From the sequence record LR597647: 64,000 nucleotides of DNA; one strand, written 5' to 3'. Of this stretch, positions 5,295-29,720 are shown piece by piece. Source of the DNA: Escherichia phage rV5_ev147. A model generated the notes under the pieces. The model did no database searches. It was not told the DNA's origin and saw nothing but the letters and a program-made list of their open reading frames with translations. Each line of letters opens with the position of its first letter. The stretch's first letter is position 1. Position numbers and translations under genes: made by a program.

Positions 5295-6577
5295 TGCATC
5301 AAATCAAAACAACACTGTACGCACTGAACAAAGATGGCAGCTACCAACAGTGGAAAGTATTCACGGATGGTGATAAGGTTATCGTAGAGTTTGGCAAGCT
5401 TGATGGTAAACTGCAATACAAAGAGACGATCTGCACACCTAAGAACGTGGGTCGCGCCAATGAGACTACAGCTGAGCAACAGGCCGAGCTGGAAGCGATC
5501 AGTAAGTGGGAAAAACAGGTCCGACTAGGGTACGTGGAGAGTATGGAAGATTGTGAGCAAGGTGTTGATCTTTTACCAATGTTAGTGCATGACTACCTGA
5601 AGCGTGGCAAGGCACTTAAATTACCTTGCTGGATCTTGCGTAAGTTAGATGGCCTTCGTCTACTTGTTGTTTTCCAGAATGGTGAGCCTAAATTTATTTC
5701 CCGTGGTAATAAGTCCTACCCTATTCAAGGAAAGCTTCTGGAGCAACTTCGCTCTTTCCACCTAACCACCGGGATTAAACAGCTCGACGGAGAGCTCTAT
5801 ATTCATGGTCTTCCTCTGCAGAAAATAGTGTCTCTTGCTAAACGGTGGCGCACACAGGAAGAAATTCAGGCCGAGATCGATAAAGACTACAAGGCAGATA
5901 AAAAACGCCGTCAGGCTGCGATTAAGGCAGGTTTAGCAACATACAAAAACTTCAACAAGATGGACATTCCTGTTGATGTTGAGCCTGTTCGTGATGATTT
6001 GCGTTACGGAGGGTACTGCAGCTACGACTTAGAGTATCATATTTTCGATATTCCTAGCGATAAGGTGTGGTGGGATCCTGAAACAGAGTCTGGACGCTGT
6101 AAGGATCTTATGGAGGCAAATGGTGCTATTGCTTCTTTGATGCTTGATCATATTAAGGTTGTTGATGCAGAGCTTGCATACACAGTTGATCGGTGCGAAG
6201 AGTCTGTTGGTATATTTATGTCTGAGGGATATGAAGGTACCATTATGCGTAACTTCTGTGGTAAATATGAGTATGGTCAGCGAACATCTGAAGCATTGAA
6301 ATGGAAAAAGTTCAACGACGCAGAGGTGAAAGTTATTGACGTTGAGAAAGATAAGAATGATGAAGGTGTTCTTATCTGTGTTGACAAGGAAGGTGTTGTT
6401 GTTAAAATGAAGATGAAAGGCACGCACGAGGAGCGTAGCTATGACAGGATGCAGGAAATGATCGGCAAGTTTGTCACCTTCAAATATCAAGCAAGGACAG
6501 AAGACAACAACTACCAATTCCCTGTCGGTATCTGCGTCCGAAATGTTAACCCAGACACTTGGGAGGTGCTGGAATGA
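5294..6577 (+). CDS. ATP-dependent DNA ligase
   Basis: Motif I KLDGLR, motif IV-like EGTIMRN, motif V-like KWKKF; ATGA overlap with upstream ORF. Confidence 0.55.
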   Translation: MHQIKTTLYALNKDGSYQQWKVFTDGDKVIVEFGKLDGKLQYKETICTPKNVGRANETTAEQQAELEAISKWEKQVRLGYVESMEDCEQGVDLLPMLVHDYLKRGKALKLPCWILRKLDGLRLLVVFQNGEPKFISRGNKSYPIQGKLLEQLRSFHLTTGIKQLDGELYIHGLPLQKIVSLAKRWRTQEEIQAEIDKDYKADKKRRQAAIKAGLATYKNFNKMDIPVDVEPVRDDLRYGGYCSYDLEYHIFDIPSDKVWWDPETESGRCKDLMEANGAIASLMLDHIKVVDAELAYTVDRCEESVGIFMSEGYEGTIMRNFCGKYEYGQRTSEALKWKKFNDAEVKVIDVEKDKNDEGVLICVDKEGVVVKMKMKGTHEERSYDRMQEMIGKFVTFKYQARTEDNNYQFPVGICVRNVNPDTWEVLE

Positions 6578-6701
6578 TGTAGGGAGGTTCAGTAGGTAAC
6601 GGTAGCCAATTGAATGATGGTTTTTCAATTGGCACCTACATAACCACACTATGCAGTGTTGTTGATCGGGTTAGTTATGAGTAAACTGGAGAGTATGAAA
6701 A

Positions 6702-7190
6702 ATGAAACTTGATAAAAATGTTCAACGAAAAGCTTTCTTGGATATGATCGCATATTCGGAAGGCACAGATAATGGTAGACAACCTACCAAGGATCGGGGG
6801 TACGATGTCATAGTCGGAGGCAAGCTGTTCAGCGATTACAGCAAGCATCCCGGTGTTTACGTTAAGCTAAATGCTAAGCTTACCTCCTCCGCTGCTGGGC
6901 GTTACCAGGTTTTGGAGAAGTTTGCTAAACACTACATGAAACAGTTAGGATTACCAGATTTTGGCCCTGACAGTCAGGACAAGATTGCGTTGCAACTGAT
7001 CCGTGAGTGCAAGGCTCTCGCCGACATTGATGAAGGGCGTATTCATCAGGCCATTTATAAATGCCGCAGCCGCTGGGCAAGCTTCCCACCACCGCCAGGG
7101 GCTGGAAAGCTGTACAATCAGCGAGCAGAAAGTATAGACAAGATGCTGGAGATCTTTAAGAAGGCAGGTGGAGTTGTTACAGATGAGTAA
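6702..7190 (+). CDS. Lysozyme, lambda R-type lytic transglycosylase
   Basis: QRKAFLDMIAYSEGTDNGRQPTKDRGYDVIVGG and C-terminal KEAGG closely match lambda R as recalled. Confidence 0.85.
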   Translation: MKLDKNVQRKAFLDMIAYSEGTDNGRQPTKDRGYDVIVGGKLFSDYSKHPGVYVKLNAKLTSSAAGRYQVLEKFAKHYMKQLGLPDFGPDSQDKIALQLIRECKALADIDEGRIHQAIYKCRSRWASFPPPPGAGKLYNQRAESIDKMLEIFKKAGGVVTDE

Positions 7191-7866
7191 CGGGATTGAC
7201 TGGTGGAGTGTCTTTAGATACGATACAGGCACTGGAAGGTTGTTTTGGAAGTCCCCACCAAAAAACAAACCTCAACTGATGGGAAAGGAGGCTGGATGTA
7301 CTAACATGGACGGGTACAGGGATATAATCTATCGCGGCGTGCATTACTACAGGCATAGATTGGTGTGGGAGATGCATTATGGACCAATTCCAGAAGGGTA
7401 CGAAGTTGATCACATAAAGCCACTTTTCTATTCCGATGGTGTTGCTGATGACAGGATAGAAAACCTACAACTGTTAACACCAGAAGAAAACGCAAAAAAG
7501 GCGGCAGATGACGGATGCCTGGCACGCAAGATACCTAAATCTAACACTGGACACTTGGGTGTATATTTTCATGCTAGAACTGGAAGGTATGCTGCTTTTG
7601 GTAAGGTAGGTCATTACTATAAGAAAGACCTAGGAGAATACGATACCTTAGAAGAGGCCCTTGCTGCTCAAAAGTCTTTTGAAAGTGGCACGTTTGTCAG
7701 GGAATATCGTGGACAGCCTTTAGGGAGGGATAAATCTAGAGGTGTCAGATTTGAAGCAGATAGGGGCAAATGGAAAGTAACTTTCAGAGGAAAAACGCTA
7801 GGCAGGTTTGACACCAAAGAGTCTGCTGAAGCGTGTTACGCAAAGGCTCTTGCTGAAAGATTGTAA
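7183..7866 (+). CDS. HNH homing endonuclease with AP2-like DNA-binding domain
   Basis: Start refined to ATG 7183; HNH region GYEVDHIKPL...ENLQLLTPEEN; overlaps the lysozyme stop. Confidence 0.6.
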   Translation: MSNGIDWWSVFRYDTGTGRLFWKSPPKNKPQLMGKEAGCTNMDGYRDIIYRGVHYYRHRLVWEMHYGPIPEGYEVDHIKPLFYSDGVADDRIENLQLLTPEENAKKAADDGCLARKIPKSNTGHLGVYFHARTGRYAAFGKVGHYYKKDLGEYDTLEEALAAQKSFESGTFVREYRGQPLGRDKSRGVRFEADRGKWKVTFRGKTLGRFDTKESAEACYAKALAERL

Positions 7867-7934
7867 CAGTATCATTGACATGACCACACGGACGTGGTAT
7901 TGTTACCTCATACAATGTTAGGGAGGGTTTAACC

Positions 7935-8141
7935 ATGAAAGATTTTCTGTTGGCAATTTTGTTCATGGCAGCATGTCTGGCCTGTGGTGTCGTGTTTGCA
8001 GGTGAAACAGCGTATCTTGTCGATGTATATCGGGACAATGGTAAACGTATTTGCCTTTATGAGACAAGCCAAGGTGAGCTCTACGAGCTTGTGAAACAAG
8101 GCGAGGCAGGTTCCTGCCCTCGCACCCATTTCTTTGAATAA
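7935..8141 (+). CDS. Small secreted protein or lipoprotein
   Basis: N-terminal hydrophobic signal MKDFLLAILFMAACLACGVVFA with Cys near the cleavage region; GGAGGG SD. Confidence 0.45.
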   Translation: MKDFLLAILFMAACLACGVVFAGETAYLVDVYRDNGKRICLYETSQGELYELVKQGEAGSCPRTHFFE

Positions 8142-8150
8142 GGGGGATAC

Positions 8151-8615
8151 GTGGAAGACGGACGTTTAATGAAGTCTGAACGCAGGCTTATTGTGCAACT
8201 GATCCCAGAAACAGCTTGGTATAATAACCTCCGAAACGCTGTAAAGAAGAGTGAGTGGGATAAGATCCGCAAGAAGTGCTATAGAGAAGCCAACTACACC
8301 TGTGAGGTGTGCGGCGGTAAAGGCAGCAAACACCCAGTGGAGTGTCATGAACTTTACACTTTCGAAGAGGGAGTGATCCGGCTTGTCGGACTGATAGCGT
8401 TGTGCCCAGATTGTCACACATCTGTGCATCCTGGGTTAGCAAATATCCGTGGAAAGTATGCTCAGGCAGTTAGTCAGTTGGCTAAGGTGAATAAGATCAC
8501 CAAGGGTATGGCAGAGGCGTATTACCGAGACTGCTTTGCAGAGTGGCGTGAGCTTAGTAAAGTTCCAGAATGGAAGACTGACTTTTCGTGGATAGAGGGT
8601 TACCTTGATGGCTAA
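8151..8615 (+). CDS. Putative HNH-type zinc-finger nuclease
   Basis: CEVCGG...HPVECHEL...CPDCH arrangement of Cys/His pairs. Confidence 0.35.
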   Translation: MEDGRLMKSERRLIVQLIPETAWYNNLRNAVKKSEWDKIRKKCYREANYTCEVCGGKGSKHPVECHELYTFEEGVIRLVGLIALCPDCHTSVHPGLANIRGKYAQAVSQLAKVNKITKGMAEAYYRDCFAEWRELSKVPEWKTDFSWIEGYLDG

Positions 8616-8898
8616 GAAACCTTTAAAAGAGAAATTTGATAAGACAGCTTTTGTATTCGATACACCTCTGGACGACATCATCAGAGGTATGCAATCCTTG
8701 TATCGGAAGGCTGAATCTGAGCAGTTGTCTGAATCAGAACTTTACTGGCTTGGTTGGTGGGAGTTAAACCTGCCTAAAGCTGAAAGTTCTTGTCTGAGAA
8801 CTGTTAAAACGTGCGCCCAAGAAAACGCTGCACTTGGAATCTACCACAAAAGGAAAAGATCAACAAAAAGCTCTCCAAGAAAGACCAAAAAGTCTTGA
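8605..8898 (+). CDS. Hypothetical basic protein
   Basis: ORF overlapping upstream stop; Lys/Arg/Ser-rich C-terminus. Confidence 0.35.
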   Translation: MMAKKPLKEKFDKTAFVFDTPLDDIIRGMQSLYRKAESEQLSESELYWLGWWELNLPKAESSCLRTVKTCAQENAALGIYHKRKRSTKSSPRKTKKS

Positions 8899-8924
8899 CA
8901 AAAGTGTTATTAATCTGATATTAT
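8895..8924 (+). promoter_or_regulatory. Sigma70-type promoter
   Basis: TTGACA (8895-8900), 18-bp spacer, TATTAT (8919-8924); precedes ORF 8958. Confidence 0.5.
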
Positions 8925-8957
8925 CGGTCAGATATCTATAAACTAGGAGAACTAGAT

Positions 8958-9266
8958 ATGCTTAAAATTTTTATTGTTGAAGATAAAGATATTGTCCAGT
9001 TGTATGCAAACGAGAATCATAAAGGTATGATTCTGAAGAAGGCAAGCAACCTTCATGAAAACACAATTCAACCTGGCGATGTAATTAAGATCTGTGGTTA
9101 TATGATATCAGACTCCTTGATGAAAATAACCCACCACTGGGGGTCTAATCCGTTCCTTTTTGAAAAGTATTGGGATGTTGAGTCACTTATTGCAGAGAGT
9201 GATGATGCATTCCATTACAGCATCCAACCATCTTGCAGAATAACTAACAGGAGGGTCTTTGAGTAG
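8958..9266 (+). CDS. Hypothetical protein
   Basis: ORF with AGGAGAA SD downstream of predicted promoter. Confidence 0.45.
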   Translation: MLKIFIVEDKDIVQLYANENHKGMILKKASNLHENTIQPGDVIKICGYMISDSLMKITHHWGSNPFLFEKYWDVESLIAESDDAFHYSIQPSCRITNRRVFE

Positions 9267-29492: not shown

Positions 29493-29720
29493 ATGAGTAT
29501 AAATGTTGTGCTAATAGGTTACCTGGTAATGTCCGTTATAACAGCGGTATTCTTGACAGGTGTATGCATCGTGTCCAGACGAAGGGTGAAGTTTGATGAT
29601 TTTATCACCATCATCACTGCTGCACCTTTTTGGCCTGTTGTTATCTTCATCGTAATAATGTGCCTAGTTGATTACTACAAGAATATCAGGAAGGAGAGTA
29701 GGGATGGAGACCGCACCTAA
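29493..29720 (+). CDS. Small membrane protein (two predicted TM helices)
   Basis: Hydrophobic stretches VVLIGYLVMSVITAVFLTGVCIV and IITAAPFWPVVIFIVIMCLV. Confidence 0.4.
   Translation: MSINVVLIGYLVMSVITAVFLTGVCIVSRRRVKFDDFITIITAAPFWPVVIFIVIMCLVDYYKNIRKESRDGDRT

What the first reader, a model, noticed from the sequence alone, without database searches (positions are those of the whole stretch)
6702..8141. Lambda R-type lysozyme followed by an HNH-AP2 homing endonuclease and a small signal-peptide protein
The lysozyme is a very close lambda R homologue but sits among early/replication genes with no adjacent holin or Rz-like genes. An HNH-AP2 endonuclease gene overlaps its 3' end, which looks like a homing-endonuclease insertion. 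The next ORF encodes a 68-aa protein with a signal peptide and Cys near the cleavage site, which could be a lipoprotein such as an o-spanin or a receptor-blocking superinfection-exclusion lipoprotein.
Basis: partly seen in the sequence, partly recalled or inferred. Interest (0 to 1): 0.4.

Follow-up and report, generated by a model that had tools for sequence, protein, structure and literature searches.

The report
Phage endolysin invaded by homing endonuclease
In this rV5-like coliphage, a mobile HNH homing-endonuclease gene has inserted at the end of the lambda-R-type endolysin gene and replaced the gene's tail, and the small gene after it encodes a secreted periplasmic protein rather than a lipoprotein; all of this is ordinary and already annotated in public records.

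Summary
All three ORFs are real. The window is 100% identical to Escherichia phage rV5_ev156 (Vequintavirus) over the 3 kb compared.

- **Endolysin (6702-7190):** a full-length lambda R homologue (E 3e-49). Its separation from the spanins, which sit next to the large-terminase gene, and from any holin was described for rV5 in 2013.
- **HNH gene (7183-7866):** a free-standing homing-endonuclease gene.
  - It is present in only 10 of 122 related phage records, always at the same site.
  - It travels with a foreign 3' end of about 113-130 bp of the endolysin gene, so the window's endolysin is a chimera of two alleles.
  - The cassette is 99.9-100% identical in backbones whose flanks differ by 2-7%.
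  - Orthologues at 80-81% identity sit at the 3' end of the donor-type endolysin in two other genome contexts.
- **68-aa gene (7935-8141):** it has its own sigma-70-type promoter and is under strong purifying selection.
  - Across the family the N-terminus is a variable signal peptide with small residues at -3/-1.
  - There is no conserved lipobox cysteine.
  - The conserved mature part of about 46 aa has two invariant cysteines.
  - It is best read as a Sec-secreted periplasmic mini-protein of unknown role, not an o-spanin or lipoprotein.

Interest is low.

The parts
6702..7190 (+). Endolysin gene (rV5 gp89 orthologue). It is lambda R-type and lacks a signal or SAR domain. It is a chimera: the 5' part is the common Vequintavirus 'type-1' allele and the 3' part is a 'type-2' allele.
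   Evidence: Lambda R structures match at E 3e-49 and PHROG 90 at 3e-52. No hydrophobic segment was found. 30-nt window identity up to 7031 is 93-100% to JeffSchatz/rV5 (type 1). From 7062 to 7151 it is 50-60% to type 1 and 67-90% to type 2; in the last window (7152-7181) the contrast fades.
7062..7870 (+). Mobile cassette: an alternative (type-2-derived) endolysin 3' end plus the HNH gene plus a few nt after its stop. It replaces about 94 bp of the HNH-less allele. The left crossover lies somewhere in the conserved stretch 7032-7077. The right junction is at 7870|7871, within a microhomology of up to 10 bp (ATCATTGACA).
   Evidence: Multiple alignment of 7 HNH+ and 7 HNH- genomes. Segment identities. 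Breakpoint scan.
7183..7866 (+). Free-standing HNH (HNH_3, H-N-N motif H77/N94/N103) homing-endonuclease gene with AP2-like C-terminal repeats. The ATG overlaps the lysin stop (ATGAGTAA). A GGTGGAG Shine-Dalgarno at 7167-7173 is formed by synonymous lysin codons.
   Evidence: Pfam HNH_3 at 3.8e-14; AP2 at 1.3e-5, below cut-off. PHROG 99 at 3e-49. Invariant RHR, H77, ENL and N103 across homologues. pN/pS is about 0.14-0.20 against YN3, FV3 and L030.
7875..7903 (+). Sigma-70-type promoter (TTGACA-17-TATTGT, with TG before the -10) for the 68-aa gene. It equals promoter P90 annotated in the rV5 record. The HNH cassette ends just upstream of its -35 box.
   Evidence: Consensus scan. rV5 record annotation. 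Conserved in all aligned genomes. The same junction geometry is seen in another lineage.
7935..8141 (+). Gene for a 68-aa secreted mini-protein (rV5 gp90 family, PHROG 4641). The predicted signal peptide is codons 1-22 (7935-8000), cut at VFA|GE. The mature part of about 46 aa (8001-8138) has invariant C40 and C61. GGGAGGG Shine-Dalgarno at 7921-7927.
   Evidence: family alignment. (pS up to 0.24 with pN 0-0.006 in most pairs; ev168 is the exception at pS 0.044, pN 0.019). (AlphaFold2 pLDDT 82: N-terminal helix plus four strands).

Best explanation
The window is part of an rV5-like (Vequintavirus) coliphage genome, and the locus has three independent parts.

1. **Endolysin.** The phage's soluble lambda-R-type endolysin needs a holin encoded elsewhere.

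2. **Homing-endonuclease cassette.** A free-standing HNH homing-endonuclease gene of about 0.8 kb has entered between the endolysin stop codon and the promoter of the next gene.
   - Inferred mechanism: in mixed infections the enzyme cuts or nicks HNH-less genomes near the end of the endolysin gene. Repair off the HNH-bearing genome then copies in the endonuclease gene together with adjacent donor sequence.
   - The visible trace is that every HNH-bearing genome carries a foreign endolysin 3' end, taken from a second ('type-2') endolysin allele that is the endonuclease's native neighbour.
   - The gene is translationally coupled to the endolysin: it has an overlapping start/stop and a ribosome-binding site built from synonymous endolysin codons.

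3. **Small secreted protein.** The conserved 68-aa gene has its own sigma-70-type promoter. It encodes a Sec signal peptide cut by signal peptidase I, releasing a periplasmic beta-sheet protein of about 46 aa, probably with one disulfide.
   - Its role is not known.
   - My best guess is an envelope-directed function such as superinfection exclusion or protection of the infected cell envelope.
   - I do not think it is an outer-membrane lysis or lipoprotein function.

Shown here: the gene content, the polymorphism, the junctions, the chimera and the selection pattern. Inferred: the cleavage activity and site, the secretion and disulfide, and the biological role of the 68-aa protein.
For: **Identity of the phage**
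- 100% identity to rV5_ev156 over the 3 kb compared.

**Endolysin**
- Homology to lambda R.
- The spanins lie next to the large-terminase gene, about 10 kb away on the other strand (PMC6658697).
- A detached putative holin, gp129, was proposed for rV5 (PMC3606486). A 75-aa ORF with two transmembrane segments is at window 29493-29720.

**Homing-endonuclease cassette**
- Only 10 of 122 related records carry the HNH gene. The others lack exactly the extra 699 bp (1233 vs 534 bp from lysin start to the next gene).
- The same protein at 95% identity or more is found only in those 10 records; the next best match is below 60%.
- The right junction is identical in all HNH+ genomes.
- The endolysin 3' end is 62-66% identical between HNH+ and HNH- genomes, while the surrounding segments are mostly 93-100% identical.
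- The cassette is 99.9-100% identical in window, nom, RudolfGeigy, ev168 and isim, although the ligase and lysin 5' flanks differ by up to 6.6%.
- isim has the cassette and Gotham lacks it, within one species.
- The foreign 3' end matches type-2 endolysins of EduardKellenberger/V18 and of a metagenomic lineage.
- HNH orthologues at 80-81% identity overlap the 3' end of type-2 endolysins in two other genome contexts. One of these has an unrelated downstream gene.
- The catalytic H-N-N residues are intact and the gene is under purifying selection.

**68-aa protein**
- Zero or one amino-acid change in most pairs despite up to 12-13 nucleotide changes (ev168 has three changes).
- The family alignment shows a variable hydrophobic N-terminus ending in VFA|G, AWS|G, AHA|S or AEA|A. 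It then shows a conserved domain with invariant C40, C61, P62, Y32 and R33.
Against: - No enzyme assay exists, so cleavage, its site and actual homing are inferred.
- The left crossover could equally come from ordinary homologous recombination between co-infecting phages, without any cut.
- The type-1 endolysin 3' end differs by about 35% from the presumed native (type-2) target. How the endonuclease first entered a type-1 genome is therefore unclear.
- No signal-peptide predictor was available. An uncleaved signal anchor or a SAR-type domain cannot be excluded.
- A natural nonsense mutation at codon 48 was read in bov10K2. Its three sister isolates show the same 98.5% match, so they probably share it. 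The protein is therefore dispensable for plaque growth.
Confidence: 0.8

Rival explanations
1. The 68-aa protein is an outer-membrane lipoprotein, either an o-spanin or a receptor-blocking exclusion lipoprotein like T5 Llp or Cor.
For: In the window sequence FMAAC14 fits the residue pattern of the PROSITE lipobox as I recall it, and a second Cys follows at position 17. The gene lies next to the endolysin in two lineages.
Against: - C14 is one residue too early for the position rule (from memory), and C17 has Cys at -3.
- In close homologues the context breaks: P0003 has F at -1 of C17, and P0005 has L at -1 of C14 and Ser at position 17.
- P0006-P0010, P0012-P0019, Kashira and SSBI34 have no Cys in a lipobox at all.
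- Conservation begins exactly after A22|G23.
- No i-spanin partner is nearby, and the o-spanin and i-spanin of this phage group are annotated next to the large-terminase gene (PMC6658697; PMC6139136).
Confidence: 0.05
2. The 68-aa protein is a lysis-timing component: the missing holin, or an RI-like periplasmic antiholin that senses superinfection.
For: - No holin has been positively identified in rV5-like phages (PMC6658697; PMC3606486 offers only a candidate).
- The gene directly follows the endolysin in the rV5-type genomes, and in a rearranged metagenomic lineage in which the exonuclease gene lies upstream.
- T4 RI is likewise a small protein with an N-terminal export signal and a periplasmic domain (my own knowledge).
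Against: - There is a single hydrophobic segment, poorly conserved and signal-like.
- The conserved part carries two invariant cysteines, which points to a periplasmic location.
- There is no basic cytoplasmic tail.
- It has its own sigma-70-type promoter.
- In the distant Vequintavirinae Kashira and SSBI34 the homologue sits in the same ligase-to-exonuclease module with no endolysin nearby.
- A nonsense allele exists in a viable isolate.
Confidence: 0.12
3. The HNH gene is ancestral at this site and has simply been lost in most Vequintaviruses, so there was no active homing.
For: Presence/absence alone cannot give the direction of change. Older, more diverged copies exist in FV3 and YN3 (96-97% identity).
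Against: - Every HNH+ genome carries a type-2-derived endolysin tail joined to a type-1 body, which is an import signature.
- The cassette is nearly identical in backbones that differ by 2-7% in the flanks.
- The same gene is polymorphic at the same site in another lineage: L030 has it, L019-L021 lack it.
- A clean deletion would not restore a lambda-like SLPGAGYGQ tail.
Confidence: 0.08

Closest known systems
Bacteriophage lambda R endolysin (lytic transglycosylase; PDB 1am7, 3d3d)
   Same: Alignable over the full length (E 3e-49). The catalytic Glu in SEGTD is conserved. It has a similar size and no export signal, so it should depend on a holin.
   Different: It is not in a lysis cassette: the spanins are by the large-terminase gene and the holin is unidentified or distant (PMC3606486; PMC6658697). 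The C-terminal 37 residues come from a second allele with a PPPP..KL insertion.
Free-standing HNH homing endonucleases of phages (HNH_3 / I-HmuI-like catalytic domain, HNH-AP2 architecture)
   Same: It has an HNH_3 domain with an H-N-N motif and AP2-like C-terminal DNA-binding repeats. It shows sporadic presence at one fixed intergenic site, co-converted flanking sequence and translational coupling to the upstream gene.
   Different: There is no sequence match to any solved structure. AP2 is below Pfam's cut-off. Activity and target are untested. The comparison with I-HmuI and intronless homing rests on my own knowledge.
T4 Spackle (Sp) and T4 RI: small exported periplasmic phage proteins
   Same: It is small, with an N-terminal export signal and a periplasmic domain. 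It is encoded by a virulent myovirus and is dispensable for plaque formation. The comparison itself is from my own knowledge.
   Different: No sequence or fold similarity was detected. The predicted fold is all-beta. The function is untested.
Two-component spanin o-subunit (lambda Rz1, T4 PseT.3)
   Same: Small size and an N-terminal hydrophobic signal.
   Different: There is no conserved lipobox Cys and no partner i-spanin. The true o-spanin of this phage group is a different gene next to the large-terminase gene (PMC6139136).

Membership tests
Lambda R-type endolysin | Full-length sequence homology to lambda R | tested here: met
   phmmer against PDB: 1am7 at E 2.9e-49, residues 4-160 vs 3-154. 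PHROG 90 endolysin at 3.2e-52.
Lambda R-type endolysin | Catalytic glutamate (lambda E19) conserved | tested here: met
   YSEGTD aligns with WSEGTD in the alignment.
Lambda R-type endolysin | Hit to a curated Pfam or NCBIfam lysozyme model | tested here: not met
   No family at E<=0.01 in Pfam-A or NCBIfam. This looks like a gap in those copies of the libraries rather than evidence against homology.
Lambda R-type endolysin | Lytic transglycosylase activity on murein | not testable with these tools
   Needs an enzyme assay.
Free-standing HNH homing endonuclease | HNH nuclease domain with intact catalytic residues | tested here: met
   Pfam HNH_3 at 52.5 bits (cut-off 24.8). H77, N94 and N103 are invariant in the alignment.
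Free-standing HNH homing endonuclease | AP2-type DNA-binding domain (HNH-AP2 architecture) | tested here: inconclusive
   AP2 at 25.9 bits against a cut-off of 33.3. AP2 is listed among the precomputed Pfam domains of orthologues P0020-P0022, but marked 'faint'.
Free-standing HNH homing endonuclease | Sporadic presence at one defined site among close relatives | tested here: met
   10 of 122 records carry it. The junction is exact. It is polymorphic within one species and in a second lineage.
Free-standing HNH homing endonuclease | Donor-derived flanking sequence (co-conversion) | tested here: met
   The chimeric endolysin has its breakpoint in 7032-7077. The donor-type allele was identified.
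Free-standing HNH homing endonuclease | Site-specific cleavage of the endonuclease-less allele and super-Mendelian inheritance | not testable with these tools
   Needs a cleavage assay and phage crosses.
Bacterial lipoprotein / o-spanin | Lipobox with an invariant +1 cysteine | tested here: not met
   C14 and C17 are not conserved. Many homologues have no Cys in the signal region.
Bacterial lipoprotein / o-spanin | Partner i-spanin gene adjacent, overlapping or embedding | tested here: not met
   The neighbours are the HNH genes and a soluble 97-aa protein. The spanin pair is annotated elsewhere.
Sec / signal peptidase I secreted protein | n-h-c signal with small residues at -3/-1, and conservation starting at the mature N-terminus | tested here: met
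   Family alignments. Hydrophobic segment at residues 4-22.
Sec / signal peptidase I secreted protein | Prediction by a trained signal-peptide predictor, or experimental processing | not tested
   No SignalP or LipoP is available in this tool set.
Holin | Conserved transmembrane domain(s) with a charged cytoplasmic tail | tested here: not met
   There is one poorly conserved N-terminal hydrophobic segment. The C-terminal part is acidic, has paired cysteines and is the conserved part.

The most novel reading that the evidence does not exclude
The 68-aa family (rV5 gp90 / PHROG 4641) could be an uncharacterised class of phage-encoded periplasmic effector. One possibility is a Spackle-like inhibitor of the cell-wall-degrading enzyme of superinfecting phages. 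Another is a periplasmic sensor that delays lysis. Either would explain why it keeps its place right after the endolysin in two lineages. It would also give a handle on the still-unidentified lysis control of rV5-like phages.
Probability: 0.15. Interest if true: 0.5.

Novelty: new member of a known kind. Interest (0 to 1): 0.2.

Why it matters
- It gives a clean natural example of how a homing endonuclease reshuffles an essential phage gene. The endolysin here is a hybrid made by the invasion, and the endolysin locus of Vequintaviruses is a hot spot with at least three states.
- This matters in practice for phylogenies and for engineering these therapeutic-candidate phages.
- It corrects the lipoprotein guess for a conserved small gene.
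- It points to naturally matched HNH+ and HNH- BASEL phages, and to a natural nonsense mutant of the 68-aa gene, as ready-made experimental material.
- It does not change any concept.

Tried and rejected
- **Pfam and NCBIfam** on the lysin and the 68-aa protein: no hits.
- **PDB sequence search** with the HNH protein: nothing.
- **Profile search of 1.8 billion representatives:** only about ten hits. These were small secreted homologues plus three long repeat proteins, which I take to be spurious matches to short beta-hairpin repeats.
- **IMG/VR scan** for the HNH protein: only relatives at 47% identity or less.
- **E. coli genomes** searched for the cassette: no match, so it does not come from a prophage.
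- **o-spanin, holin and lipoprotein readings** of the 68-aa protein: rejected or down-weighted, as set out under the rival explanations.
- **Literature search** for a function of rV5 gp90 or for Vequintavirus superinfection exclusion: nothing relevant.
- **UE-M6 holin paper:** concerns an unrelated phage.
Full report
**What the window is.** Window 6000-9000 is 100% identical to Escherichia phage rV5_ev156 and to phage nom, and 94-99% identical to many other Vequintavirus (rV5-like) myoviruses. The public records annotate the three genes as lysin/endolysin, putative HNH or homing endonuclease, and putative membrane or hypothetical protein.

**Observation.** All three ORFs exist at the stated coordinates.
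- The 162-aa protein aligns with lambda lysozyme R (PDB 1am7, 3d3d) over its whole length at E 3e-49, with the catalytic SEGTD glutamate in place. It matches PHROG 90 'endolysin'. Pfam and NCBIfam gave no hit. It has no hydrophobic N-terminus, so it is a soluble, holin-dependent endolysin.
- The next ORF carries a Pfam HNH_3 domain (3.8e-14, above cut-off) and a sub-threshold AP2 match (25.9 bits against 33.3). Its annotated ATG at 7183 overlaps the lysin stop codon (ATGAGTAA).
- The 68-aa ORF has one N-terminal hydrophobic stretch and belongs to PHROG 4641, of unknown function.

**Lysis-gene context.**
- The rV5 paper describes Gp89 as an isolated lysin and proposes a distant two-transmembrane-segment protein, gp129, as the holin (PMC3606486).
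- The LL12 announcement places the i-spanin and o-spanin next to the large-terminase gene and states that the holin could not be identified (PMC6658697).
- The spanin census lists an rV5 spanin family with separated genes (PMC6139136).
- In phage nom the spanin pair lies next to the large-terminase gene, about 10 kb away on the opposite strand.
- A 75-aa ORF with two hydrophobic segments and a basic tail, probably the gp129 counterpart, is at window 29493-29720.

**The HNH gene is a mobile insertion.**
- Of 122 related phage records, only 10 (nine distinct phages) cover the whole 3-kb query. The others match in two pieces spanning 2302 bases instead of 3001.
- In the 13 relatives I aligned, the distance from the lysin start to the start of the 68-aa gene is either 1233 or 534 bp, with nothing in between.
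- The right junction is exact. In all HNH+ genomes the sequence resumes at ATCATTGACATGACC..., which in HNH-less genomes begins at the last base of the endolysin stop codon. This is the -35 box of a sigma-70-type promoter (TTGACA-17-TATTGT, window 7875-7903), annotated as P90 in the rV5 record.
- The left side is not a simple junction. From about 7062-7078 to the stop codon, every HNH+ genome carries a different endolysin 3' end: 15 extra bases and only 62-66% nucleotide identity to HNH-less genomes. The surrounding segments are mostly 93-100% identical.
- The protein therefore ends in SFPPPPGAGKLYNQRAESIDKMLEIFKKAGGVVTDE instead of the lambda-like SLPGAGYGQHEQKIEKLIEVFKKAGGVVLD.

**Origin of the foreign tail.**
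- The same kind of tail belongs to a second, more diverged endolysin allele ('type 2', about 70% amino-acid identity overall).
- Type 2 is found in a few Vequintaviruses (EduardKellenberger, V18, JEP1, HMD-6, YP-6, WM) and in a metagenomic lineage with a rearranged gene order (L019-L021).
- A 30-nt sliding comparison shows that the window's endolysin is type 1 up to 7031. The 7032-7061 stretch is conserved against JeffSchatz (type 1) and the HNH-bearing type-2 loci. From 7062 to about 7151 the sequence is closer to type 2.
- Orthologues of the HNH protein at 80-81% identity (P0021, P0022) sit at the same place, overlapping the 3' end of a type-2 endolysin, in two other backgrounds.
  - L030 belongs to the rearranged lineage. 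Its relatives L019 and L020 have no HNH gene in this region, and L021 has a different one upstream of the lysin.
  - L031 and L032 are a different context in which the downstream genes are an unrelated 62-aa ORF and NrdD.
  - In L030 the cassette again ends immediately before the TTGACA of the small gene's promoter.
- So the endonuclease gene is tied to the end of the endolysin gene, not to what follows it, and the rV5-type genomes acquired it together with a stretch of donor endolysin.

**Evidence of recent spread and of function.**
- The cassette is 99.9-100% identical among the window, nom, RudolfGeigy, ev168 and isim. Their ligase and endolysin 5' segments differ by up to 6.6% and 4.5%.
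- isim (HNH+) and Gotham (HNH-) are filed under the same species.
- FV3 and YN3 carry an older version, 96-97% identical.
- The ORF is intact in all of them, with pN/pS of about 0.14-0.20.
- The RHR, DH(77), ENL(94) and N103 residues are invariant across homologues down to 31% identity.
- Synonymous changes in the endolysin's last codons (GGT GGA G instead of GGC GGC G) create a Shine-Dalgarno 9 nt before the HNH start.
- The family is common in enterobacterial phages: 668 records matched at E 1e-10 or better, all but these ten below 60% identity.
- All of this fits intronless homing by a free-standing endonuclease. Cleavage itself, and the exact target, remain inferred.
- One open point is how an enzyme native to type-2 genomes first entered a type-1 genome whose last 113 bp differ by about 35%. 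The right-hand crossover used at most 10 bp of shared sequence.

**A hot spot.** A different HNH_3 gene (238 aa, 30% identical to the window's) is inserted upstream of the endolysin in the type-2 Vequintaviruses and in L021. A third, conserved HNH gene follows the 68-aa gene (8151-8615, PHROG 5200). The endolysin locus therefore exists in at least three states in this genus.

**The 68-aa protein.**
- It is a real gene. Against YN3, Gotham and FV3 there are 11-13 nucleotide differences but 0-1 amino-acid changes (pS 0.24, pN 0-0.006).
- The lipoprotein idea fails at the family level.
  - Homologues at 63-74% identity have signal regions such as MKTLWAVFISAMMFASGSAWS|GD with no cysteine, or with cysteines in non-lipobox contexts.
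  - Distant homologues (36% identity or found only by profile) end their hydrophobic region in AHA|S, AHA|G, AQA|S, AEA|A or SYA|G.
  - What is invariant is the mature part: T25, L28, D30, Y32, R33, C40, Y42, G47, V53, G59, C61, P62. Conservation starts right after A22|G23.
- That pattern indicates a cleavable Sec signal and a periplasmic domain of about 46 aa with one probable disulfide.
- AlphaFold2 gives an N-terminal helix followed by a four-stranded sheet (mean pLDDT 82). No informative structural neighbour was found.

**Where the 68-aa gene sits.**
- It keeps its own promoter.
- It directly follows the endolysin in the rV5-type genomes and in the rearranged L019 lineage.
- In Serratia phage Kashira and Salmonella phage SSBI34 the homologue sits in the same ligase-to-exonuclease module with no endolysin nearby. 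The tie to lysis is therefore weak.
- bov10K2 carries a stop at codon 48. Its three sister isolates show the same 98.5% match, so they probably share it. The gene is not essential for plaque growth.
- I favour an accessory envelope function, with superinfection exclusion or envelope protection as the leading guess at low confidence. A lysis-timing role is the main rival.

**Verdict.**
- The homing-endonuclease reading is well supported and sharpened: a defined cassette, a chimeric endolysin, an identified donor allele and the same site in three genome contexts.
- The lipoprotein / o-spanin reading is not supported.
- Everything belongs to known kinds and is already annotated in public records, so interest is low.

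Noticed in passing
window 29493-29720 (+): A 75-aa ORF with two hydrophobic segments and a basic C-terminus (PHROG 10061, unknown function). It is probably the counterpart of rV5 gp129, the only holin candidate proposed for this phage group, and lies 22 kb from the endolysin.
   Followed up: partly
L017 436-1152 (EduardKellenberger); L021 2742-3422: A different HNH_3 endonuclease gene (226-238 aa, 30-32% identical to the window's) is inserted upstream of the type-2 endolysin, overlapping its start. JEP1 and V18 match only part of the query that spans this gene and the lysin, which suggests decay.
   Followed up: partly
window 8151-8615 (+): A third HNH gene (154 aa, PHROG 5200) is annotated in 12 of the 13 aligned Vequintavirus relatives (V18 has a shorter ORF there). 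It has a weak match to the HNH region of RNA-guided IscB (E 4e-4, far below cut-off).
   Followed up: no
L011 1437-1580 (bov10K2; probably also bov11CS3, bov22_2, bov25_3): The 68-aa gene carries a premature stop at codon 48 in bov10K2. Its three sister isolates show the same 98.5% match. This is a natural knockout in a viable phage.
   Followed up: partly
L014 1654-1872 (Gotham); L022 4218-4436: An extra 72-aa gene (Pfam DUF7205 in L022) is inserted between the 68-aa gene and the downstream HNH gene in some genomes. This is another small presence/absence polymorphism.
   Followed up: no
phage records MG0656xx: About 19 records named 'Campylobacter phage', with host Campylobacter jejuni, are 96-98% identical to E. 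coli rV5-like phages over this region. The host labels look doubtful, or the preparations were mixed.
   Followed up: no
L012 (KR698074.1, APCEc02): Product names in this public record appear shifted by one gene. 'ATP-dependent DNA ligase' is on the endolysin gene and 'lysozyme' is on the 68-aa gene.
   Followed up: no
window 6604-6632: There is a perfect 9-bp inverted repeat (CCAATTGAA-N9-TTCAATTGG) in the ligase-endolysin intergenic region, with no T-run after it. This is the region where the upstream endonuclease gene sits in type-2 genomes.
   Followed up: no
L016 278-1543 (rV5 ligase): The rV5 ligase gene is 18 bp shorter (1266 vs 1284 bp), and its 3' part aligned at only 60% identity to the window in my alignment. 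This may be an alignment artefact or another mosaic segment.
   Followed up: no
H185-H187 (BP9, pangalan, CarlMeissner): These Vequintaviruses match the type-2 endolysin query at only 73-76% nucleotide identity over part of its length. This hints at further endolysin alleles beyond the two compared here.
   Followed up: no
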